From an uncultured Bacteroidales bacterium (lineage in GTDB: Bacteria > Bacteroidota > Bacteroidia > Bacteroidales > VadinHA17): a stretch of DNA of 64,000 nucleotides. The position numbers and the translations under genes were made by a program. The stretch's first letter is position 1. Each line of letters opens with the position of its first letter. Shown here piece by piece: positions 32,150 through 57,071 of the stretch. The notes under the pieces were generated by a model that was given only the letters and a program-made list of their open reading frames with translations, searched no databases and was not told where the DNA came from. The stretch is from assembly GCA_963828395.1 (NCBI GenBank), contig CAWHED010000006.1:216275-280274 (forward strand), in the 5' to 3' direction.

Positions 32150-32219
32150 CAAAGTTAAGCTACATAAACGCTGAAGTCAAGTAATTGGAACGGACTTTAA
32201 CCTATTATCGTTATTTTTG
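32150..32219. promoter_or_regulatory. Divergent Bacteroidota -7 promoter elements
   Basis: TAACTTTG (minus, 32150-32157) and TATTTTTG (plus, 32212-32219). Confidence 0.55.
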
Positions 32220-32238
32220 TTCCTGTAAAAACAGAACA

Positions 32239-34254
32239 ATGACACGCAGAACTGCCATAACATCAGCATACCTGTTATTAATCCCTCTTTTCACGCTGCA
32301 GGCCCAGGTTCTCGAGCCTGTCACATGGAGCTTCGGCAGCGAAAAGACAGCAGATAACAAATTCGACATAGTTATGACAGCTGACATTGATAACAGCTGG
32401 CATCTCTATGCAATGGATATAGCTGAAGGAGGCCCCATAGCCACCAGCTTTACATTTGAGGAGCCTTCGGGCTATACAATGGAGGGCAAACCTGTTGCCA
32501 TTGACAAGCCTGAGGTCAAATTTGACAACAGCTTCGGCATGGACATCGGAATGCACAGCGTTAAGGCCGAGTTCAGGCAGAAAATCACTGTTACCCAATA
32601 TCCTGCAAAGGTTAAAGGATTTGTGACTTTTATGTCATGTGATGACAAACAATGCCTCCCGCCACGGGATGTTGAGTTTTCAATGGTGATCAGTGGCGAC
32701 AGTGCGGCATCTGCCTCCACTGAGCAGATTAAGACTGCTGAATCTGTCTATGACAAGCCCCTGCAGACAGCCGGTGATGCCCCTGCAAAGCAGCAGGGAA
32801 AAGGTCTCCTTAAATTTTTCCTGTTGTCTATGCTTGCCGGATTTGCCGGTATTCTTACGCCTTGTGTGTTCCCGATGATACCTATGACAGTGGCTTTCTT
32901 TTCACAGGGAACGGAAAAGAAAGGATCGGCAATCGGGAAAGCACTTATTTTCGGACTGACCATCATCCTGCTTTATTCTTCTCTCGGTATCATCGTTTCT
33001 CTTACAAGTGCCGGTGCAGGTTTTGCCAATACTCTCAGCACGCATTGGTTGCCCAACACTCTTTTCTTTGCACTCTTCCTTGTTTTTGCTGCATCTTTCT
33101 TTGGTGCTTTTGAGATCATATTACCGTCAAAATGGGTAAGTTCATCTGACTCAAAGGTTGACAAGGGCGGGGTGCTTGCCGCATTCTTTCTCGGACTGAC
33201 AACCGTGCTGGTCTCTTTCTCATGTACGGGCCCGATCGTTGGTGCCCTGCTGGTTGAGGCTGCCTCGGGTGACGTTCTGCGCCCCACAACAGGCATGTTC
33301 GGCTTCGGCCTTGCCTTTGCCCTGCCGTTCACCCTCTTTGCCCTCTTCCCCTCATGGATGAAGAAGATGCCGAAATCAGGCGGCTGGCTCAACTCAGTCA
33401 AGGTGGTGCTGGGCTTCATCATGCTGGCATTCAGTTTGAAATTTGCTTCAAACATAGACACCGTCTATTCGCTGGGCATCCTTTCAAGGGATGTTTACCT
33501 GGCAATATGGATTGTAATATTTGTCCTGATGGGTCTGTACCTGATGGGAAAAATCAAATTCGAAAATGACAGTGATGTGAGTCATATCGGGGTTTTCAGA
33601 CTGGTGCTGATCATAGCTTCATTTTCATTTGCCTTATATCTTGTTCCCGGTCTTTTCGGAGCGCCGCTCACACGTATATCTGCCCTGTTGCCTCCGCGTG
33701 AAACATCAGGCTTTAATCTCCTGAAAGCGATTGGCGAAAACAGGGGGGGAAGTCCCGCTGTGAACACAGGATCAGCCGTTTGCGAAACACCAAAATATTC
33801 TGATTTTCTGTATTTTGAATACGGCCTGGAAGGCTACTTTGATCTTGAGCAGGGACTGGCATGTGCGCAGAAGCTTGACAAGCCGGTACTGATTGATTTC
33901 AAGGGCCACGCCTGCGCCAACTGTAAGCAGATGGATGCACGTGTCTGGTCTGACCCGGAAGTACAGAGACGCATAAGGGAAAACTTTGTGCTGGTGGCAC
34001 TGTATGTTGACGACCGCACTAAATTAACTGAAATGGAAGTGTTTGTTTCAAAGATAGACGGCAGGGAGAAGAAGACAATGGGCAAAAAGAATGAAGACAT
34101 CGAGATCTCAATGTTCAATTCCAATACTCTTCCTCTTTATGCAATTGTCGATCCTTATGGCAAGCCCCTGGTTGAAACCCGGGGCACTGACTTTGACATT
34201 CAGGAATACATCGACTGGCTCGACAGAGGAGTCAAGGCATTCGGAGAGAAATAA
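32239..34254 (+). CDS. dsbD: Thiol:disulfide interchange protein DsbD
   Basis: N-domain CDDKQC, TM domain TPCVFPMIP and SCTGP, thioredoxin domain CANC. Confidence 0.93.
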   Translation: MTRRTAITSAYLLLIPLFTLQAQVLEPVTWSFGSEKTADNKFDIVMTADIDNSWHLYAMDIAEGGPIATSFTFEEPSGYTMEGKPVAIDKPEVKFDNSFGMDIGMHSVKAEFRQKITVTQYPAKVKGFVTFMSCDDKQCLPPRDVEFSMVISGDSAASASTEQIKTAESVYDKPLQTAGDAPAKQQGKGLLKFFLLSMLAGFAGILTPCVFPMIPMTVAFFSQGTEKKGSAIGKALIFGLTIILLYSSLGIIVSLTSAGAGFANTLSTHWLPNTLFFALFLVFAASFFGAFEIILPSKWVSSSDSKVDKGGVLAAFFLGLTTVLVSFSCTGPIVGALLVEAASGDVLRPTTGMFGFGLAFALPFTLFALFPSWMKKMPKSGGWLNSVKVVLGFIMLAFSLKFASNIDTVYSLGILSRDVYLAIWIVIFVLMGLYLMGKIKFENDSDVSHIGVFRLVLIIASFSFALYLVPGLFGAPLTRISALLPPRETSGFNLLKAIGENRGGSPAVNTGSAVCETPKYSDFLYFEYGLEGYFDLEQGLACAQKLDKPVLIDFKGHACANCKQMDARVWSDPEVQRRIRENFVLVALYVDDRTKLTEMEVFVSKIDGREKKTMGKKNEDIEISMFNSNTLPLYAIVDPYGKPLVETRGTDFDIQEYIDWLDRGVKAFGEK

Positions 34255-38252: not shown

Positions 38253-39626
38253 ATGAAAAAGAAGAATACTACAGGGTCAGCATTGGCTATTGTCCTGGCC
38301 ATTGCCCTGCTAACTCTTTCTGCCTTTGCCTTCATCAGATACCTTCCGCAGGAAGATCTTAAAGGCAAATATGCGTACAAAGAGTTTGAATCAGCAAAAA
38401 AATGCCGGTCCTGCCACCCCGGTATCTATGAGCAGTGGTCGCAGGCCATGATGTCACAGGCTTACACTCATCACTGGGACGAGATCGAGTATTTTAACCT
38501 TGCAGTGCCTCATGCTGAGGTCAAGCCTGAACTGAAAGGCCCTGTTGACGGATGCAACGGCTGTCACACACCCATGGGATATATGGAAGGGACGATGCCC
38601 CCTCCGCGTCCTGAGGAGAACAGCATGGCCAATGAATCTGTTTCGTGCGAGGTGTGTCACCTGACACAGAAAGCTCAAACCGATCCGCCGTTTAATTTCA
38701 GCTATTATATTGTCCCGGGCATGACCAAGTACAGCGGACGTGAGCCTGAGATTCAATCGCCGGCACACAAGATTGAGCAGAGCGATTTTCACAGGACCAC
38801 AGAGTTCTGCGGTAACTGCCACAATGAAAAGAATCCTTACGGCATCTGGGTCAAGAGCACCCAGCTCGAGTGGAAAGAGGGCCCGTATGCTGCCGAGGGA
38901 GTACGCTGCCAGGACTGCCACATGCCAAAGGGACCATATATTCTGGCACTGATGGGCAAAGAGCGTGATGATGCGCGCCTGCATCTGTTCCATGGTGCAC
39001 ATGATCCGGGAAAGGTGAGGGGTACCATCGAACTCAGAATACAACCTGATGTACGACAAGCAGAACCCGGGGACAATATCGTGTTCACTGTTGCTCTTTT
39101 CAACCAGAAGACCGGCCACAAATTTCCCACAGGTTCAGTTGAGGACCGGATCGCATGGCTCGATGTTGAGGCTACAGACGCTAAAGGGAAAACATATCAT
39201 ATCAATGTGGATAAGAAAGGTTTTGAAGGCGAAGAATACACAATATCAGGCGATTACCTTGCCTACCAGGATATGGGTATTCCACTGAAAATAGCTGATT
39301 TCAAGGGGGTTCAGCGCGATGGCATACCTTACGGCAACAGGATATTCAGAAAGCCTTACTTTGACGAGCAGGGAAGGATGACTATCATGCAGTGGAACAC
39401 TGCCAGCCAGGGTGTTGATTACAGGATTGGCCCGAGAGAAACCAAAGTTGAGAAACTTACATTCAGGGTACCCGATGAGGCTGCTCCGGGAGAGATGACA
39501 GTCCATGCTGTTCTTAATTACCAGTTGCTGGTCAAACCTGTGGCCGATTTCCTGAAGGTCCCTTCCGATGAATCAGCAATATTGATGGTGAACGAACATT
39601 CCACAAAAGTTGAGATACTCCCCTGA
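38253..39626 (+). CDS. Secreted pentaheme c-type cytochrome (c554/c552-like) with C-terminal beta domain
   Basis: Signal peptide; CRSCH, CNGCH, CEVCH, CGNCH, CQDCH; GHKFPTG motif. Confidence 0.9.
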   Translation: MKKKNTTGSALAIVLAIALLTLSAFAFIRYLPQEDLKGKYAYKEFESAKKCRSCHPGIYEQWSQAMMSQAYTHHWDEIEYFNLAVPHAEVKPELKGPVDGCNGCHTPMGYMEGTMPPPRPEENSMANESVSCEVCHLTQKAQTDPPFNFSYYIVPGMTKYSGREPEIQSPAHKIEQSDFHRTTEFCGNCHNEKNPYGIWVKSTQLEWKEGPYAAEGVRCQDCHMPKGPYILALMGKERDDARLHLFHGAHDPGKVRGTIELRIQPDVRQAEPGDNIVFTVALFNQKTGHKFPTGSVEDRIAWLDVEATDAKGKTYHINVDKKGFEGEEYTISGDYLAYQDMGIPLKIADFKGVQRDGIPYGNRIFRKPYFDEQGRMTIMQWNTASQGVDYRIGPRETKVEKLTFRVPDEAAPGEMTVHAVLNYQLLVKPVADFLKVPSDESAILMVNEHSTKVEILP

Positions 39627-39646
39627 TAACCATTAAACTTAAAAAT

Positions 39647-40852
39647 ATGGAACGTACATCATTTGCCAGGTTAACTATTCTGGTTGCAACGGCGTTATTC
39701 ATAGTTCCGGTTAAAAACGCCGAAGCCATTCCGGCCTTTGCCCGAAAATACCAGATCAGCTGCCAGGTGTGTCACACACCGGCTATGCCCAGGTTAAAAG
39801 CCTTTGGCGCTGAATTCGCCAACAACGGCTTCAGAATGACTGAGTACCAATCACCAAGATACTTTGTCGAAACGGGTGACGACAGGCTTTCTCTTTTCAG
39901 AGAGTTTCCACTGGCTATCAGACTGGAAGGGTATACAACCCTGAATTTCGAAAACGAAGGAACAGTTGATTTTGCCGCTCCCTTTGTAGTAAAGGTTCTT
40001 TCAGGAGGCGAACTCACTGATAAGCTATCGTACTATTTTTATTTTCTGATGAATGAAACAGGAACAGTAGTTGGTCTTGAGGATGCTTTCATGATGTATC
40101 ATGACTTTCTGGGTGCCGGCATAAATTTGTTTATCGGACAGTTCCAGGTTTCAGACCCTCTTTTCAAGGGGGAATTGCGGCTTACCCTTGAACCATATCA
40201 GATTTATGCCACCAGGCCGGAAAACTCGTCGGTTGACCTTAAGTATGACCGGGGAATAATGTTCGACAAGTCATTCAAGACGGGAACAACACTTGTCGGG
40301 GAAATAGTGAATGGCAGCGGACTGGATCCGGCATGGGGTGAATTCCTTTTTGATAAGGATAAATTCAAGAATTTTATGCTGAGGATAAGCCAGTCTATCG
40401 GAAAAAGAATATCAGTCGGCTTCTTTGGGTATACGGGGAAAGAGGAAATAAGTGACGATATTACAACCCCATACATAAGTGAGATGAAAATGTATGGCCC
40501 CGATGTGGCAATTGACATTGACCAGAAGCTGATGATAAATATGCAGTATGTCTGGAGGACAGATTCTGAAGTCTATAATTCAATTGAAGAGGAAACGCTT
40601 AATGATGTGGCCACTAAGGGAGGGTTTGTTGAGATTATCTATGCACCCAAAGGGGATATGAGCAAGTGGTACGTGACAGGACTTTTAAACCTTGTTGATT
40701 CGCAGATTGATGATCTTGATTATCAGGCTGGCACGGTTCATTTCGGCTACCTGCTGCGCCGCAATGTGAGGGTTGTGGCAGAAGGAACCTACATATTCTC
40801 AGGCGCCAGTCCGTACGCAAAAGCCAGCGCGGGGTTTGTGTCGGCATTCTGA
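39647..40852 (+). CDS. Cyc2-type fused monoheme cytochrome c - porin
   Basis: Signal peptide, then AIPAFARKY-x3-CQVCH-x4-PRL (Cyc2 N-terminal signature), then an amphipathic beta-strand region ending in Phe. Confidence 0.8.
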   Translation: MERTSFARLTILVATALFIVPVKNAEAIPAFARKYQISCQVCHTPAMPRLKAFGAEFANNGFRMTEYQSPRYFVETGDDRLSLFREFPLAIRLEGYTTLNFENEGTVDFAAPFVVKVLSGGELTDKLSYYFYFLMNETGTVVGLEDAFMMYHDFLGAGINLFIGQFQVSDPLFKGELRLTLEPYQIYATRPENSSVDLKYDRGIMFDKSFKTGTTLVGEIVNGSGLDPAWGEFLFDKDKFKNFMLRISQSIGKRISVGFFGYTGKEEISDDITTPYISEMKMYGPDVAIDIDQKLMINMQYVWRTDSEVYNSIEEETLNDVATKGGFVEIIYAPKGDMSKWYVTGLLNLVDSQIDDLDYQAGTVHFGYLLRRNVRVVAEGTYIFSGASPYAKASAGFVSAF

Positions 40853-41074
40853 TATTATTTGATCATCTACGAAGATCAAATTATTCTTCGCATTCTTTTG
40901 CTACAATAATCAGATCATCTACGATGATCATTTACACAGTACAATGATGGTCGTAGACCATCAAATTATTGTAGTAACCGTATTAGTACAATATACGATG
41001 GTCGTAGACCATCAAATTATTGTAGTAGTAGTATCAGTAAAATGATGGTCGTAGACCATCAAATTATTGTAGTA
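40853..41074. repeat. Cluster of five REP-like palindromic repeats (BIME/REPIN-like)
   Basis: GATGGTCGTAGACCATCAAATTATTGTAGTA at 40946, 40997 and 41044; inverted variants near 40855 and 40901. Confidence 0.85.
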
Positions 41075-42289
41075 GTAGCAGAATTGCCTAGGAAGGGCTC
41101 AACAGCGCGGTCGAATATTCCATGCATATAGGCAATGGCCATGCCATAGTTAGTTATCGGGATATCATGTTTTTTTGGGTCGCGAAGCCGGTTCACGAGC
41201 TGGCGGTGGGTCACCATGCATCCGCCACACTGGATGACAAGGGCATATTCTTCTATCAGGCGGGGAACTGCATCCAGTCCTGCCACGTTGTCAAACTTCA
41301 GCTTTTTGCCGGTGAAATTTGTCAGCCACCGGGGGATCTTCACCCTGCCGATATCGTCACATGAGACATTATGCGTGCATGATTCAAGAAGCAATACCCG
41401 GTCACCGTCCTTCAACCTGCTTATTTTGGGTGTTCCTTTCAGGTACTCTTCAAAATCGCCTTTCTGCCTGGCCAGCACGATGCTGAAGCCTGTCAGGGGG
41501 ATGTCACGGGGTATAGCGGCATTTACCTTACCGAATGCCTGGCTGTCAGTTACAACCAGTCGCGGTTTTATTCCGGTTTTGTTAAGGAAGGATTCTATCT
41601 CATTTTCCTTAAGTATAATGGCTGTACAGTCGTTGTCAAGCGTATCTCTTATTACCTGCATCTGGGGCAGTATCATCCTTCCTTCCGGGGCCTCGATATC
41701 AATGGGAGTCACCAGCAGGACAATATCTCCCGGACTTACAAGGTCACCGATGAGCCCCTGACTTTTCAGAGCCGATGCCGGCATGTTTTCCTTCAGTGCA
41801 CTGATCAGTTCCGGGTTATATATTTCGGAATGCACTGCAGAGTATTCCAGAACGTCATGATCAGTCTGACTTCTGACGGCCATCCTGAAAGATTCTGTCA
41901 CAGGAGACAGGTCACTCTTATTGTGCACAATGATGTAAGGGAGGTCAATGTCATTAAAACCTGCGATCAGATCAGTTTCATAATCGCCAAGCTGATTGTC
42001 TGATACGACCAGGATGGCAAAGTCTATCAGTTTAATGGCTGCCAACGACTTTCCGGTTCTGAGTTTTCCGAGCTCCCCGCTGTCATCAATTCCTGCCGTA
42101 TCAATAAAGATAATCGGTCCGATGCCGTGCAGCTCAACGCTCTTTTTAACCGGGTCAGTTGTTGTGCCGGCGACTTCGGATACGATGGCTATATCCTGTC
42201 CCACCAGGGCATTTATCAGTGAGCTTTTACCGACATTACTGCCGGCCAAATATTCCTACATGTGCCTTGCCTTCTCTTCCCTTTGACAT
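41059..42289 (-). CDS. hydF: [FeFe]-hydrogenase H-cluster maturation GTPase; frameshift in the P-loop near 42243
   Basis: MSKGREGKAHVGIFGR|SNVGKSS, GTTTDPV, DTAG, NKSD, ESCTH..DDIG, QCGGC. Confidence 0.9.
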
Positions 42290-50300: not shown

Positions 50301-51548
50301 ATGAAAAATACTATGTTTAGCCTGACATTAATAATGATTGCAGGCATATTCGGATCAATGACATCATGTGAGAAGACCAAGGACAATACTCCGGGTGACC
50401 CGGTGCCGATAGATCTTTCTCTCAAACAAAAGGAAGTAGTTGCCTCGGCCAACAAATTTGCCTTCGATTTTTTTGTGCCGATACTTTCCGGGGAAGATGG
50501 AGCAGGGAATCTCATGATCTCACCGTTCAGTATTACCAGCGCGCTCTCAATGACTCTCAACGGAGCTGCAGGAGAGACGTTTGACGCTATGAATTCCGGT
50601 CTCCGTTATGAAGGCCAGACCATTGAGGAGATCAATGATACATACCTGAAGCTGATTGAAGAAATGATCCCTGTCGATGAACAGGTCATAATGGAAATAG
50701 CCAACTCGGCATGGGTGGAAGAAAAGTTCACCCCGAAGCAGGCTTTCATGGACGCTCTTGTTAAATGGTACATGGCCGAGGTAGAAAAGATAGATGTTAC
50801 AGACCCGGGAGCAGTCGACCTGATAAACGCCTGGATCGAGGACAAAACACATGACAAGATTCAGGACATGGTTGCATCACTGCCTGATAACCTTGCCATG
50901 CTTCTTGTTAATGCAGTCTATTTCAAAGGCAAATGGAAGCACCAGTTTGACAAGGATGACACTCATGACAGATCATTTTACTTAACTCCGGATGCACCTG
51001 TTGATGTCCCGATGATGTATCAGAAACAGAATTTTGCAATCGCCGGCACTGAAAATGCAACACTCGTTGAGCTGCCTTACGGACAGGGCAACTATTCAAT
51101 GGTGGTCATGCTGCCTGATGAGGGTGTATCGAATGAAGCAGCTGCCCTGACCCTCACACCTGAAAACTGGGCGGAGTGGATGGAGAGTCTCTCAGCTGGC
51201 ACAACAGAGGTGGAGATTTACCTGCCCAGGTTCAAGTATGAATACAAGCGTAATCTGAATGATGATCTTGCCAGTCTCGGTATGGGCATTGCTTTTGATC
51301 CGGATAATGCAGACTTTAGTAACATAAGTGATCTTCAGCTTTATATTACCGATGTTCTGCATCAGACCTTCATTGAGACAAATGAGGAGGGCACTGAAGC
51401 TGCCGCCGCTACTGTGGTAATTATTGGCACCACCTCGATGCCCCCTCAGACACCTGTCATTAATATAGACCGTCCTTTCCTCTATTTCATAAGGGAAACA
51501 ACAACAGGCACAATTGTATTTATGGGGCAGGTGACGGATCCGAGGTAA
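50301..51548 (+). CDS. Serpin-family lipoprotein (probably inhibitory)
   Basis: Lipobox MTSC; ISPFSI, NAVYFKGKW, hinge EEGTEAAAAT, DRPFLYFI. Confidence 0.95.
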   Translation: MKNTMFSLTLIMIAGIFGSMTSCEKTKDNTPGDPVPIDLSLKQKEVVASANKFAFDFFVPILSGEDGAGNLMISPFSITSALSMTLNGAAGETFDAMNSGLRYEGQTIEEINDTYLKLIEEMIPVDEQVIMEIANSAWVEEKFTPKQAFMDALVKWYMAEVEKIDVTDPGAVDLINAWIEDKTHDKIQDMVASLPDNLAMLLVNAVYFKGKWKHQFDKDDTHDRSFYLTPDAPVDVPMMYQKQNFAIAGTENATLVELPYGQGNYSMVVMLPDEGVSNEAAALTLTPENWAEWMESLSAGTTEVEIYLPRFKYEYKRNLNDDLASLGMGIAFDPDNADFSNISDLQLYITDVLHQTFIETNEEGTEAAAATVVIIGTTSMPPQTPVINIDRPFLYFIRETTTGTIVFMGQVTDPR

Positions 51549-55616: not shown

Positions 55617-57071
55617 GTGAAGAATAGGATATGGTTGTGGTTCCTGATCGGCCTGGTGGCCGGAGCGATTGTTTTTTTCGGGCTGGGGAAGGCAGTTGAA
55701 GCCACGTCAACTAATGATTTCTGCGCCTCGTGCCACGTTCATCCTCAAGCCACAGCAAGCTGGAAGCAGGGGGTTCATTATGCAACAGAGTCTGGTTACC
55801 GGGTCGCGTGTGCCGGGTGCCACCTGCCGCCCAATGGCCAGGGTTACCTGATTGAGAAAGTAAAGACCGGTTCACGTGATTTATGGAGTTACTGGACAAA
55901 GGATTCAACTGAATTCGACTGGGAAGCAGCCTCTTCTCTTGAGAGAGCTTCAAAACACGTTTATAATTCAACCTGCATAAAATGCCATGAGAATCTCTTC
56001 CCGGCAAAACTTACCCGTGAAGGATCTGATGCGCACCTCTATTACAAGCAGATGACAGAAAAGGGAGAGGAGCTGCAGTGCATCAGCTGTCACATGAATG
56101 CGGGTCACTACATAAAGGATTATGTGCACGGCAGCAATAAGGGTTTCGGTCTGGCAGAAAAGCAGGCAGATACAATTTATACATCCCCCGCCGCTGTCGC
56201 CTCTTTTACTGATTTTACAGAGCAGATACCCGGATCCGGGATCTCATTCAGGATGATTGCCCTGCCCGGCACTAATTTTACAATGGGAAGCCCCGACGGT
56301 GAACCGCTGCGTAACCCTGATGAGGCACAGCGAAAGGTCAGCATAGACTCATTCTTCATCGCTGAGGTGGAGGTTACATGGGATGAGTACATGGAATTTT
56401 ACAGACAGACAGCATCCGAAGGGAGGTCGACAGATACCGAGGGGTCGCGTCTTAAGAAGGAGAACCTTGATGCAGTCACAGGTGCTACACCACCTTACGG
56501 CAAGCCCGACCAGAACTGGGGCATGGGACAGAGACCGGCTATATCAATGAGCTATCATGCAGCTGAAACATATTGCCGGTGGCTCAGTCAGGTGACGGGC
56601 AGACATTATCGGCTGCCGACAGAAGCCGAGTGGGAGTATGCATGCAGGGCAGGAACAGAGACACCCTATTTCTTTGAAGGTGACCCCGCCAGGTTTGAGA
56701 AAAAAGGGCTTTTCGGAAGCAGGATCGATACTGCAATCATTGGCACTTATGTCATCTACCGGGGTAATAGTCAGTCAAAGACACAAGAGCCGGAGGCTGT
56801 TAAAGCCAATCCGTGGGGACTGAAGAATATGAGTGGCAACGTGGCCGAGTTCTGTTCTGACATATACGAAGGAACAACGGAACATGTCATCAGGGGAGGG
56901 TCATACCGTGACGGCGCTGCGGGTGTCAGGAGCGCAGCACGTGACCATACGCGCACTGATGCCTGGCTGAAGACTGACCCCCAGATGCCGAAGAGCATAT
57001 GGTGGTACTCTGATTGTTTTTATGTGGGGTTCAGGGTAGTATTGGATAAGGAATTAAAAGTTAAGATTTAA
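55617..57071 (+). CDS. NapC/NirT-type tetraheme cytochrome c fused to an FGE-sulfatase (SUMF1-like) domain
   Basis: N-terminal TM helix; CASCH, CAGCH, CIKCH, CISCH; FTMGS, EVTW, RLPTEAEWEYACRAG, NPWGL..MSGNVAE, RGGS, GFRVV. Confidence 0.88.
   Translation: MKNRIWLWFLIGLVAGAIVFFGLGKAVEATSTNDFCASCHVHPQATASWKQGVHYATESGYRVACAGCHLPPNGQGYLIEKVKTGSRDLWSYWTKDSTEFDWEAASSLERASKHVYNSTCIKCHENLFPAKLTREGSDAHLYYKQMTEKGEELQCISCHMNAGHYIKDYVHGSNKGFGLAEKQADTIYTSPAAVASFTDFTEQIPGSGISFRMIALPGTNFTMGSPDGEPLRNPDEAQRKVSIDSFFIAEVEVTWDEYMEFYRQTASEGRSTDTEGSRLKKENLDAVTGATPPYGKPDQNWGMGQRPAISMSYHAAETYCRWLSQVTGRHYRLPTEAEWEYACRAGTETPYFFEGDPARFEKKGLFGSRIDTAIIGTYVIYRGNSQSKTQEPEAVKANPWGLKNMSGNVAEFCSDIYEGTTEHVIRGGSYRDGAAGVRSAARDHTRTDAWLKTDPQMPKSIWWYSDCFYVGFRVVLDKELKVKI

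What the first reader, a model, noticed from the sequence alone, without database searches (positions are those of the whole stretch)
38253..40852. Cyc2-type cytochrome-porin paired with a periplasmic pentaheme cytochrome: candidate extracellular electron transfer conduit in a Bacteroidales-like anaerobe
Seen: a two-gene operon (20-nt gap) encoding a secreted 5xCxxCH protein and a protein whose mature N-terminus is AIPAFARKY-x3-CQVCH-x4-PRL, followed by a beta-barrel ending in Phe. Established: AxPxFAR[Q/K][T/Y]...CxxCH...PxL plus a porin is the Cyc2 signature, the outer-membrane Fe(II) oxidase of Acidithiobacillus and Zetaproteobacteria, whose usual partners are small mono/diheme cytochromes. 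Inference: in a polysaccharide-degrading Bacteroidota with hydF, this pair may move electrons across the outer membrane (metal/humic reduction, Fe oxidation or interspecies transfer). The pentaheme has extra His/Met residues and a heme-free C-terminal domain, so it may be catalytic.
Basis: partly seen in the sequence, partly recalled or inferred. Interest (0 to 1): 0.85.

Follow-up and report, generated by a model that had tools for sequence, protein, structure and literature searches.

The report
Cyc2-type haem porin with pentahaem partner
A Bacteroidales genome carries a tightly conserved two-gene unit, an outer-membrane pore with its own haem plus a five-haem periplasmic protein, that most likely carries electrons across the outer membrane, though which way and to what has not been tested.

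Summary
Window 38253-39626 (+) encodes a 457-aa secreted protein with five CxxCH. After a 20-nt gap, 39647-40852 (+) encodes a 401-aa protein with the complete published Cyc2 signature.

The second protein meets every Cyc2 criterion I could test:
- The motif, a single haem site and the length all fit.
- AlphaFold predicts a confident 16-strand barrel that matches 16-strand porins, including OprO and OprP.
- Profile-profile comparison shows full-length homology to Zetaproteobacteria/Gallionellaceae and Acidithiobacillus-type Cyc2 (99% probability).
- In trees it sits outside those two groups, in the heterogeneous "Cluster 3-like" part.

The pentahaem is a relative of Thermochromatium tepidum cytochrome c552 (haem cap plus Ig-like domain). 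That fold family also holds Geobacter ExtKL/MccSep, but this protein lacks MccSep's catalytic Cys and Sec.

The two genes are adjacent in all 20 of 301 sampled same-order genomes that have the porin, and in 17 of 119 motif-bearing loci from several phyla. No other neighbour is conserved. Haem c maturation (fused CcsBA) is present.

Function is inferred: an outer-membrane electron conduit whose direction is open. Cyc2 homologues in Bacteroidetes were already noted in print. I did not find the fixed pentahaem partner in the papers searched. This is a new variant of a known kind.

The parts
38253..39626 (+). Gene for a secreted pentahaem c-type cytochrome (457 aa), a c552/PHC-type protein
   Evidence: ORF. 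PDB sequence hit to 5ze8: E 9.3e-07 with the single sequence and 2.4e-10 with the profile. The Foldseek top hit is 5ze8, E 5.6e-12.
38253..38336 (+). N-terminal hydrophobic signal sequence (residues 1 to about 28). Cleaved signal or membrane anchor is not decided.
   Evidence: Sequence. Relatives have typical cleavable signals such as ...ISA|QT and ...SHS|QD. Read by eye; no predictor was run.
38403..38921 (+). Five CxxCH haem-binding motifs at residues 51-55, 101-105, 132-136, 186-190 and 219-223 (nt 38403-38417, 38553-38567, 38646-38660, 38808-38822, 38907-38921)
   Evidence: All five are invariant in 21 sequences. In the Ignavibacteriota-type relatives the first motif is CxxxCH.
39015..39623 (+). 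Haem-free C-terminal beta-sandwich (Ig-like) domain, residues about 255-457, with the invariant loop K286-x-G-H289-K-F-P-T-G-S-V-E-D-R299
   Evidence: In the AlphaFold2 model the 10-residue-block mean pLDDT is 63-97 over this part, and 73 or more in 18 of 20 blocks. The same architecture is reported for c552 and MccSep.
39627..39646 (.). 20-nt intergenic spacer; no terminator-like site inside it
39647..40852 (+). Gene for a Cyc2-family fused monohaem cytochrome-porin (401 aa)
39647..39727 (+). Signal peptide, residues 1-27, with probable cleavage at AEA|IP
   Evidence: Sequence; helix 2-19 in the model. Read by eye.
39725..39796 (+). Cyc2 signature: A27-I-P-A-F-A-R-K-Y35, C39-Q-V-C-H43, P48-R-L50
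   Evidence: The motif definition is from Keffer et al. 2021, passages read.
39911..40849 (+). Predicted 16-strand outer-membrane beta-barrel, residues 89-401, ending in ...GFVSAF
   Evidence: 16 strands, pLDDT mostly above 90. (273 PDB chains at E<=0.001; the top hits are 16-strand porins, including OprP 2o4v and OprO 4rjw).
40937..41078 (.). Tandem repeat of 47-51 bp, 2.9 copies, each with the palindrome TGATGGTCGTAGACCATCA. It lies in the convergent gap to hydF and may act as a two-way terminator.
   Evidence: 3 matches in the window, 0 expected. Its function was not tested.

Best explanation
The two genes form a self-contained module for an electron path across the outer membrane.

The 401-aa protein is exported and folds into a 16-strand outer-membrane barrel. 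Its N-terminal 60-residue segment carries one covalently bound c-type haem, as in Cyc2. The 457-aa protein is exported to the periplasm. There it carries five closely spaced haems in an alpha-helical cap on an Ig-like stem, as in T. tepidum c552.

Electrons would pass between a small, soluble redox species that can enter the pore (most likely iron) and the barrel's haem, then to the pentahaem, which links to the respiratory chain.

I slightly favour the direction known for every characterised Cyc2: oxidation of dissolved Fe(II). The electrons would go on to oxygen (haem-copper oxidase or cytochrome bd) or to nitrite (NrfA-like enzyme) in this genome.

What is shown:
- the gene structure and the motifs
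- homology to Cyc2 and to c552
- the predicted barrel
- strict conservation of the pair
- presence of haem c maturation and of terminal oxidases

What is inferred:
- haem attachment and cellular location
- contact between the two proteins
- the substrate and the direction

I put the conduit reading, whatever the direction, at about 0.7. The confidence given here is for the Fe(II)-oxidising direction.
For: The Cyc2 signature is complete, judged against the published definition: AXPXFAR[Q/K][T/Y], CXXCH, PXL four residues later, and at least 365 aa (passages read; sequence).

Fold. The model has pLDDT 88.8 and 16 strands. Foldseek finds 273 PDB chains at E<=0.001, led by 16-strand porins and including OprP and OprO. 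Those are the same two structures Keffer et al. name for Cyc2.

Full-length profile homology (hhalign):
- to 8 Zetaproteobacteria/Gallionellaceae-type sequences: probability 99.4%, E 1.8e-21, 344 columns
- to 12 Acidithiobacillus-type sequences: probability 99.3%, E 1.3e-20

Pair conservation:
- The pentahaem lies directly upstream, on the same strand, in all 20 of 301 sampled same-order genomes that have the porin. Two of those 20 copies are interrupted.
- It lies upstream in 17 of 119 motif loci, from Bacteroidota, Ignavibacteriota, Kapabacteria, Thermoanaerobaculia and others, at 52-85% identity.
- In 16 pair loci the only genes shared are these two.

Haem c maturation is present as a 1030-aa fused CcsBA open frame.

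For the direction:
- Characterised Cyc2 homologues are Fe(II) oxidases (passages).
- The genome has COX1, cytochrome bd and an NrfA/NrfH-like pair.
- COX1 was found in 15 of 20 pair genomes against 111 of 281 others in the same sample. Related genomes are not independent, so this is only a lean.
Against: No experiment or expression data bear on this locus, and no RNA run is on record.

The protein lies outside the two Cyc2 clusters with the best functional support. Keffer et al. call Cluster 3 function 'most uncertain'.

No COX1 was found in 5 of 20 pair genomes at E<=1e-30: four are 98-99% complete (G245, G049, G185, G249) and one is 89% complete (G072). Oxygen-linked Fe(II) oxidation therefore cannot be the whole story.

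The hosts look like organoheterotrophs. The window carries GH20, a serpin and an aromatic amino acid lyase.

The structurally closest pentahaem, c552, is described as low-potential. This rests on the title of Chen et al. 2019 as cited; I did not read the paper. A low potential suits an outward path at least as well.

Related Ignavibacteriaceae are described as Fe(III) reducers.

The haem cap of the pentahaem was poorly modelled (pLDDT below 50 for residues 31-73 and 96-225). Haem ligation is therefore not established.
Confidence: 0.4

Rival explanations
1. Same conduit, opposite direction. Electrons from fermentation or anaerobic respiration leave the quinone pool and pass through the low-potential pentahaem to the barrel's haem. 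There they reduce small soluble acceptors that can enter the pore, such as chelated Fe(III), humic-type quinones or flavins. This would give polysaccharide-degrading Bacteroidales an external electron sink.
For: - The partner is a multihaem protein of the c552/ExtKL fold family, not the small dihaem found beside Cyc2 in the Acidithiobacillus-like and Gallionellaceae-like loci.
- In Geobacter, extKL lies in a cluster with an outer-membrane porin gene and has been proposed to act in extracellular electron transfer.
- Cyc2 homologues occur in Fe(III)-reducing Ignavibacteriaceae and in Bacteroidetes from an anoxic humic bog.
- The pair occurs in 5 of 20 genomes without a detected haem-copper oxidase.
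- The genome holds at least 12 ORFs with four or more CxxCH.
- Measured Cyc2 potentials go down to -130 mV.
Against: - No Cyc2 homologue has been shown to work as a reductase in the papers read.
- One haem inside a pore cannot touch insoluble minerals.
- No inner-membrane quinol oxidase is linked to the pair. The NapC/NirT-FGE fusion in the window co-occurs with it in only 5 of 20 pair genomes.
- ExtKL itself has since been shown to be a periplasmic polysulfide reductase rather than a conduit part.
Confidence: 0.3
2. Not a conduit. The pentahaem is a periplasmic reductase or oxidase for a small solute, by analogy with MccSep polysulfide reductase. The barrel would be its dedicated uptake channel, with the barrel's haem serving as a sensor, gate or accessory redox site.
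For: - The pentahaem shares the five-haem cap plus Ig-like stem with MccSep and c552. c552 has been suggested to act in sulfur metabolism.
- The most conserved stretch of the whole protein is a loop of the Ig-like domain, G288-H289-K-F-P-T-G-S-V-E-D-R. MccSep's catalytic Sec also sits on a loop of that domain.
- The barrel resembles anion-selective porins (OprP, OprO, Omp32).
Against: - The protein has no cysteine outside the haem motifs and no in-frame TGA, so MccSep's Cys239-haem and Sec325 chemistry is absent.
- The ExtKL model scores 46.6 bits against a cut-off of 250.
- Six invariant and one near-invariant extra histidines are enough to close all five haems.
- A covalent haem kept invariant in a porin across 45 homologues argues for electron transfer through the barrel.
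- I could not align H289 to the Sec site because no MccSep sequence was at hand.
Confidence: 0.12
3. The database labels are right: the 457-aa protein is a NapC/NirT-type membrane-anchored quinol dehydrogenase. Its neighbour would be an ordinary porin that happens to carry a CxxCH.
For: - Several sources name relatives 'NapC/NirT family cytochrome c' or 'nitrate/TMAO reductase-like tetraheme cytochrome c subunit'.
- Pfam PF03264 scores 29.8 bits against a cut-off of 24.1.
- The window protein's N-terminal hydrophobic stretch is long enough to be an anchor.
Against: - The PF03264 match covers only residues 181-228, which is profile positions 34-77 of 174.
- The protein has five haems and a 200-residue Ig-like domain.
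- Its best structural and sequence match is soluble c552.
- Relatives have ordinary cleavable signals.
- The porin's haem motif and its surroundings are invariant and homologous to Cyc2.
Confidence: 0.05

Closest known systems
Cyc2 fused cytochrome-porins (Acidithiobacillus ferrooxidans Cyc2, Mariprofundus Cyc2PV-1, Ghiorsea Cyc2, Leptospirillum Cyt572)
   Same: - Signal peptide and one CxxCH.
- The AXPXFAR[K][Y] motif upstream and PXL four residues downstream.
- About 400 aa.
- A predicted 16-strand barrel like OprO/OprP, with a C-terminal Phe.
- Full-length profile homology.
   Different: - It branches outside the Zetaproteobacteria/Gallionellaceae group and the Acidithiobacillus group. It sits in a well-supported clade of Bacteroidota, Ignavibacteriota, Kapabacteria, Gemmatimonadota and Wenzhouxiangella sequences.
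- The partner gene lies upstream and encodes a 457-aa pentahaem, not a small downstream dihaem.
- The hosts are heterotrophs not known to oxidise iron.
- No activity data exist.
Thermochromatium tepidum penta-haem cytochrome c552 (PDB 5ZE8) and the 'PHC' family proposed for cable bacteria and Geobacter (ExtKL, Gsu2801)
   Same: - Five haem motifs in the same order, aligned across the protein. E is 2.4e-10 by profile.
- It is the Foldseek top hit by seven orders of magnitude.
- It has a C-terminal Ig-like domain.
   Different: - Only 18% identity.
- c552 is not reported next to a Cyc2-type gene, and its role is unassigned.
MccSep / ExtKL polysulfide reductase of Geobacter sulfurreducens
   Same: - A periplasmic pentahaem with an alpha-helical cap and an Ig-like stem.
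- It is encoded next to an outer-membrane barrel gene (extI).
- There is a weak NCBIfam match.
   Different: - It scores 46.6 bits against a cut-off of 250.
- It has no Sec/Cys site and no haem-ligating Cys.
- The partner barrel here carries its own haem and has 16 predicted strands. I could not check the strand number of ExtI, and do not rely on it.
Porin-cytochrome conduits (MtrAB/MtoAB/PioAB, Geobacter Pcc)
   Same: A periplasmic multihaem protein encoded beside an outer-membrane barrel, thought to pass electrons across the outer membrane.
   Different: In those systems a haem-free barrel sheathes a long multihaem protein (named from established knowledge of MtrAB; not tested here). Here the barrel is porin-sized and holds its own single haem. 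The partner has a bulky Ig-like domain.

Membership tests
Cyc2 fused cytochrome-porin | Single CXXCH near the N-terminus, after a signal peptide | tested here: met
   One CxxCH, at residues 39-43. The N-terminus is hydrophobic with AEA at 25-27. The signal peptide was read by eye only.
Cyc2 fused cytochrome-porin | AXPXFAR[Q/K][T/Y] motif upstream of the haem site | tested here: met
   A27-I-P-A-F-A-R-K-Y35, then three residues, then C39. The definition is from the passages read.
Cyc2 fused cytochrome-porin | PXL four residues after CXXCH | tested here: met
   H43-TPAM-P48-R-L50. P48 is invariant and L50 is at least 90% conserved in 45 sequences.
Cyc2 fused cytochrome-porin | At least 365 residues | tested here: met
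   401 aa.
Cyc2 fused cytochrome-porin | C-terminal 16-strand porin resembling OprO/OprP | tested here: met
   The AlphaFold2 model has 16 strands and pLDDT 88.8. Foldseek hits 2o4v at E 5.5e-10 and 4rjw at E 1.0e-09, among other 16-strand porins. This is a prediction only.
Cyc2 fused cytochrome-porin | Sequence homology to Cyc2 of known iron oxidisers over the whole length | tested here: met
   hhalign probability 99.4% (E 1.8e-21) to the Zetaproteobacteria/Gallionellaceae set and 99.3% (E 1.3e-20) to the Acidithiobacillus-type set, over 344 columns each. The reference sets came from MAG and isolate loci named by their record titles, not from the characterised proteins themselves.
Cyc2 fused cytochrome-porin | FeGenie HMM score and cluster assignment (1, 2 or 3) | not testable with these tools
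   The FeGenie models are not in any library offered, and Pfam and NCBIfam give no hit. Trees place the protein apart from the Cluster 1-like and Cluster 2-like groups, with a second Mariprofundus type, Nitrospira and Acidobacteriota sequences. No Leptospirillum anchor was in the set.
Cyc2 fused cytochrome-porin | Bound haem c and Fe(II) oxidase activity | not testable with these tools
   This needs expression, haem stain and assay. The genome does encode haem c maturation.
c552-type pentahaem (PHC family) | Five CXXCH in an N-terminal cap plus a C-terminal Ig-like beta domain, with similarity to 5ZE8 | tested here: met
   Five motifs. 5ze8 scores E 9.3e-07 and 2.4e-10 by sequence and E 5.6e-12 by fold. 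The C-terminal domain is confident, but the cap is not.
MccSep / ExtKL | NCBIfam NF040886 at or above its cut-off | tested here: not met
   46.6 bits against 250.
MccSep / ExtKL | Conserved Sec/Cys catalytic residue and Cys distal ligand of haem 2 | tested here: not met
   All 10 cysteines lie in the five CxxCH, and the ORF has no in-frame stop. The features are defined in the sections read.
NapC/NirT quinol dehydrogenase | Match along the NapC/NirT tetrahaem domain with an N-terminal membrane anchor | tested here: not met
   PF03264 matches only residues 181-228, profile positions 34-77 of 174. TIGR02161 scores 11.6 bits against 310.6.
MtrAB-type porin-cytochrome complex | Haem-free barrel around a long multihaem protein | tested here: not met
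   The barrel has its own haem motif and a porin-sized 16-strand fold. DmsE/MtrA family TIGR03508 scores 19.8 bits against 192.2 for the pentahaem.

The most novel reading that the evidence does not exclude
The pair is a minimal six-haem outer-membrane conduit special to the Bacteroidota-Ignavibacteriota lineage. A Cyc2-type haem pore would be wired to a pentahaem of the family that also gave rise to the MccSep sulfur reductase and, by a published suggestion, to archaeal cytochrome nanowires. It would let common polysaccharide-fermenting Bacteroidales of sediments, soils and digesters pass electrons outward to dissolved iron, humic quinones or partner cells. Cluster 3-type 'iron oxidase' genes counted in metagenome surveys would then often mark electron disposal rather than iron oxidation.
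Probability: 0.25. Interest if true: 0.8.

Novelty: new variant of a known kind. Interest (0 to 1): 0.55.

Why it matters
Cyc2 is the main marker gene used to score iron oxidation in metagenomes. The function of its most divergent branch is openly uncertain in the literature read here.

This locus shows that one well-supported sub-branch comes as a fixed two-gene unit with a c552-type pentahaem. It is common in public data: 3555 relatives of the porin at E<=0.001 in one search, and about 7% of sampled genomes of the order. Wherever sources give the porin a name, it is 'hypothetical protein'.

The unit is present in a cultured, non-iron-oxidising isolate, Marinilabilia salmonicolor. That makes the function of this branch directly testable by genetics.

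If the unit works outward, survey counts of 'iron oxidisers' would need revising. A large group of fermenters would also gain an external electron sink. If it works inward, heterotrophic Bacteroidales would join the organisms that draw electrons from Fe(II).

Tried and rejected
**Partner docking.** Complex prediction was run with the barrel (residues 27-401, alignment A1), the pentahaem (31-457, A2) and four haems. It returned 'no answer' (score 0.02, mark 0.32). This is no evidence either way.

**Expression.** The look-up of sequencing runs listed no RNA holder. The best DNA holder shares 0.24 of the sampled words. I did not lay reads, and I name no habitat from it.

**Inner-membrane partner by co-occurrence.** The NapC/NirT-FGE fusion in the window (55617-57071) was found in 34 of 301 same-order genomes, but in only 5 of the 20 pair genomes. 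I rejected it as a dedicated partner.

**Conserved third gene.** There is none. In 16 pair loci only the two genes recur, and the other 'hits' are antisense shadow frames. DsbD, hydF and the aromatic amino acid lyase are local neighbours only.

**Selenocysteine variant.** One relative (G049) showed an in-frame TGA in the search table. Reading the DNA showed a broken copy instead: an internal loss of the region with haems 3-5 and a frame change. It is not a Sec codon. The G010 copy is interrupted by a run of N.

**MccSep sequence for a residue-level comparison.** No match reached the family cut-off in 5 genomes reached through my loci. The structure is not in the PDB copy. Whether H289 sits at the Sec position is therefore untested.

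**Model coordinates.** They are not readable in the script box. I could not check whether the haem segment sits inside the barrel, or where H289 points.

**Literature.** Searches for the pair were: Cyc2 + Bacteroidales; Cyc2/Bacteroidota/Ignavibacteri; Melioribacter/multiheme/Cyc2; Cyc2 + pentaheme; Prolixibacter corrosion; Melioribacter ferrihydrite. None describes a Cyc2 gene with a c552-type pentahaem partner. He et al. 2019 already report Cyc2 homologues in Bacteroidetes and Ignavibacteriaceae MAGs. They may list these very sequences or their neighbours.


Full report
**What is there.**
One search confirms two same-strand ORFs: 38253-39626 (457 aa) and 39647-40852 (401 aa). They are separated by 20 nt, and no terminator-like site lies between them.

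Upstream is a 316-nt gap to a divergent aromatic amino acid lyase gene. Downstream is a convergent hydF.

The first protein has a hydrophobic N-terminus and five CxxCH motifs. It has no other cysteine.

The second reads KNAEA-IPAFARKY-QIS-CQVCH-TPAM-PRL after a hydrophobic leader and ends in GFVSAF.

Pfam and NCBIfam give no family for the second protein. For the first they give only generic multihaem families, plus a weak match to ExtKL at 46.6 bits against a cut-off of 250.

**Is the second protein a Cyc2?**
The definition comes from passages of Keffer et al. 2021:
- a signal peptide
- one CXXCH
- an AXPXFAR[Q/K][T/Y] motif upstream, said to be unique to Cyc2
- PXL four residues downstream
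- at least 365 residues
- a 16-strand porin resembling OprO/OprP

All of these are met.
- The motif residues are invariant or nearly so in 45 homologues down to 23% identity.
- An AlphaFold2 model built on that alignment has mean pLDDT 88.8 and pTM 0.85, with 16 strands.
- Foldseek against the PDB returns 273 chains at E<=0.001. They are led by 16-strand porins and include OprP (2o4v) and OprO (4rjw).

To compare with real Cyc2 sequences, I scanned one genome per species with a degenerate DNA pattern for the motif.

The titled records include Mariprofundus and other Zetaproteobacteria, Sideroxydans and Gallionellaceae, Acidithiobacillus, Nitrospira, Acidobacteriota, Gemmatimonadota, Ignavibacteriota and Bacteroidota. 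One is the isolate Marinilabilia salmonicolor.

The 119 loci hold 120 motif-bearing ORFs. 88 are complete and at least 365 aa; 32 were dropped as cut or short.

Profile-profile comparison of the window's family gave these results:
- against 8 Zetaproteobacteria/Gallionellaceae-type sequences: 99.4% probability, E 1.8e-21, 344 aligned columns
- against 12 Acidithiobacillus-type sequences: 99.3% probability, E 1.3e-20

The homology therefore runs through the barrel and is not limited to the motif.

**Where in the family.**
I built a FastTree of 89 rows and an IQ-TREE quick tree of 40 rows under a mixture model. They agree on three points:
- The Zetaproteobacteria/Gallionellaceae group is supported at 99 and 98.
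- The Acidithiobacillus-type group is supported at 100 and 100.
- Together they are split from the rest at 99 and 98.

The window protein lies in the rest. That part also holds a second Mariprofundus type, in line with the 'Zetaproteobacteria Cluster 3' of McAllister et al..

Within it, the window protein belongs to a clade supported at 100 and 99. The clade holds Bacteroidota, Ignavibacteriota, Kapabacteria, Gemmatimonadota and Wenzhouxiangella sequences.

I call this Cluster 3-like. The FeGenie models and a Leptospirillum anchor were not available, so the assignment is by exclusion. Keffer et al. state that function in Cluster 3 is the most uncertain.

**The partner.**
The pentahaem matches one solved protein by sequence: the penta-haem cytochrome c552 of Thermochromatium tepidum (5ZE8). 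E is 9.3e-07 with the single sequence and 2.4e-10 with a 21-sequence profile, and all five haem motifs are in register.

The AlphaFold2 model is poor in the haem cap, with pLDDT below 50 for residues 31-73 and 96-225. This is expected without haems. It is better over residues 255-457, a beta-sandwich whose block-mean pLDDT is 63-97.

Foldseek puts 5ZE8 first at E 5.6e-12. The next hit is at 2e-05.

Two papers place c552 in a wider group:
- A cable-bacteria study proposes a pentahaem cytochrome family. It holds c552, Geobacter ExtKL and Gsu2801, and the authors note a suggested relation to an archaeal cytochrome nanowire (passages).
- A 2025 preprint shows that ExtKL (MccSep) is a periplasmic polysulfide reductase with a five-haem cap and an Ig-like stem. 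Its haem 2 is ligated by Cys239, and a selenocysteine sits on a loop of the stem (sections read).

The window protein lacks both catalytic residues. It has no free cysteine and no in-frame stop.

It has six invariant extra histidines (H73, H87, H172, H244, H250, H289) and one near-invariant (H247). That is enough for bis-His ligation of five haems.

The most conserved stretch of the protein is a stem loop around H289. I could not test whether it corresponds to the Sec loop.

**Is the pair real?**
In a sample of 301 genomes of the same order:
- The porin was found in 20, from 14 of 209 genera.
- The pentahaem was found in 21.
- In all 20 porin-positive genomes the pentahaem lies directly upstream, on the same contig and strand.
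- Two of those copies are interrupted: one is broken internally and one holds a run of N.

Among the 119 motif loci, 17 have a pentahaem homologue upstream at 52-85% identity. They come from Bacteroidota, Ignavibacteriota, Kapabacteria, Thermoanaerobaculia and unclassified bacteria.

Within the 23-row clade:
- 15 rows, including the window, have the pair.
- 2 loci are cut too short to tell.
- 6 lack it although at least 1.9 kb of upstream DNA is present. These are four Gemmatimonadota and two Wenzhouxiangella-like rows.

Nothing else is syntenic across 16 pair loci.

Other branches have other partners:
- small dihaems downstream in the Acidithiobacillus-like and Gallionellaceae-like loci
- dihaems of 359-396 aa upstream in Krumholzibacteria, Phycisphaerae and one Acidobacteriota locus
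- small pentahaems of 166-180 aa downstream in Myxococcota, Binatia and one Bacteroidetes locus

**Host background.**
- The genome (3.76 Mb, 96.7% complete) has a 1030-aa fused CcsBA frame.
- A DsbD gene lies 4 kb upstream of the pair.
- It has a full-length haem-copper oxidase subunit I and cytochrome bd.
- It has an NrfA/NrfH-like pair.
- At least 12 ORFs carry four or more CxxCH.

It is therefore not a cytochrome-poor strict fermenter.

COX1 was found in 126 of the 301 genomes. It was found in 15 of the 20 pair genomes and in 111 of the 281 others. This is a lean, not a rule, and related genomes are not independent.

**Mechanism.**
The best-supported reading is an electron path across the outer membrane: a soluble species in the pore, then the barrel haem, then the pentahaem, then the respiratory chain.

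For the Fe(II)-oxidising direction:
- Every characterised Cyc2 works that way.
- Oxidases are present in this genome.

For the outward direction:
- The partner is a multihaem protein of low-potential type.
- Carriers exist in which no haem-copper oxidase was found.
- Relatives include Fe(III) reducers.

I put the conduit at about 0.7 overall. That divides into 0.4 inward and 0.3 outward. A periplasmic enzyme with a dedicated channel gets 0.12, and the NapC/NirT label 0.05.

**Novelty.**
Cyc2 homologues in Bacteroidetes and Ignavibacteriaceae MAGs are already in print (He et al. 2019). The membership itself is therefore not new.

The papers I searched do not describe the fixed pairing of this sub-branch with a c552-type pentahaem, or its presence in a cultured isolate. 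The searches were made; the term searches inside papers are listed under Tried and rejected. Supplements were closed and may hold relevant tables.

Wherever sources name the porin, the name is 'hypothetical protein'.

I rate it a new variant of a known kind, of moderate interest. It offers a clear route to test the uncertain branch of a widely used marker gene.

Noticed in passing
window 55617-57071 (+): A 484-aa protein fuses an N-terminal NapC/NirT tetrahaem domain (PF03264, E 1.1e-29) to a C-terminal FGE-sulfatase/SUMF1-like domain (PF03781, E 7.6e-35). It is followed by a TAT-signal GFO/IDH/MocA oxidoreductase and a xylose-isomerase-like TIM barrel protein. Relatives occur in 34 of 301 same-order genomes. 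I do not know what it does.
   Followed up: partly
window 40937-41078: A tandem repeat of 47-51 bp, 2.9 copies, each holding the 19-base palindrome TGATGGTCGTAGACCATCA. It lies between the porin gene and the convergent hydF, and the last copy overlaps the hydF stop.
   Followed up: partly
window 32185-34254 (+): A DsbD-type thiol:disulfide transporter (DsbD_N, DsbD_TM, thioredoxin-like). Its family supplies reductant for cytochrome c maturation. It lies 4 kb upstream of the pair but is not syntenic with it elsewhere.
   Followed up: partly
own genome, C7:111850-114496; C6:125739-127040; C5:581161-586328: Further multihaem genes lie outside the window. One cluster has 9-, 4- and 11-CxxCH ORFs. 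There is an 8-CxxCH lipoprotein-like ORF. A run of one 7-haem, one 5-haem and three monohaem ORFs lies just upstream of the fused CcsBA gene. None was characterised.
   Followed up: no
own genome, C4:249755-251066 (-): A second COX1 match is split into two adjacent pieces (profile 10-269 and 270-436) in separate open frames of 274 and 245 aa. It may be a frameshift, a broken gene or an assembly error.
   Followed up: no
window 50301-51548 (+): A full-length serpin (PF00079, E 1.7e-113) in a bacterial genome, next to a bile acid:sodium symporter family gene and a GH20 hexosaminidase.
   Followed up: no
loci L015, L035, L061, L084, L088: In the Ignavibacteriota/Kapabacteria-type pentahaems the first haem site is CxxxCH (for example CGTSCH) instead of CxxCH. 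The other four sites are standard.
   Followed up: partly
loci L033, L069, L054, L024; L055, L102, L072: Other Cyc2-like branches have their own multihaem neighbours. Small five-CxxCH proteins of 166-180 aa lie downstream in Myxococcota, Binatia and one Bacteroidetes MAG. Two-CxxCH proteins of 359-396 aa end 1-13 nt before the Cyc2-like start in Krumholzibacteria, Phycisphaerae and an Acidobacteriota MAG.
   Followed up: no
L126 (G049:C183:1-2600) and L045: There are two broken copies of the pair. In G049 the pentahaem lacks the region with haems 3-5 and changes frame. In L045 the pentahaem is in fragments and the Cyc2-like ORF stops after 124 aa. I could not tell decay from assembly error.
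   Followed up: partly
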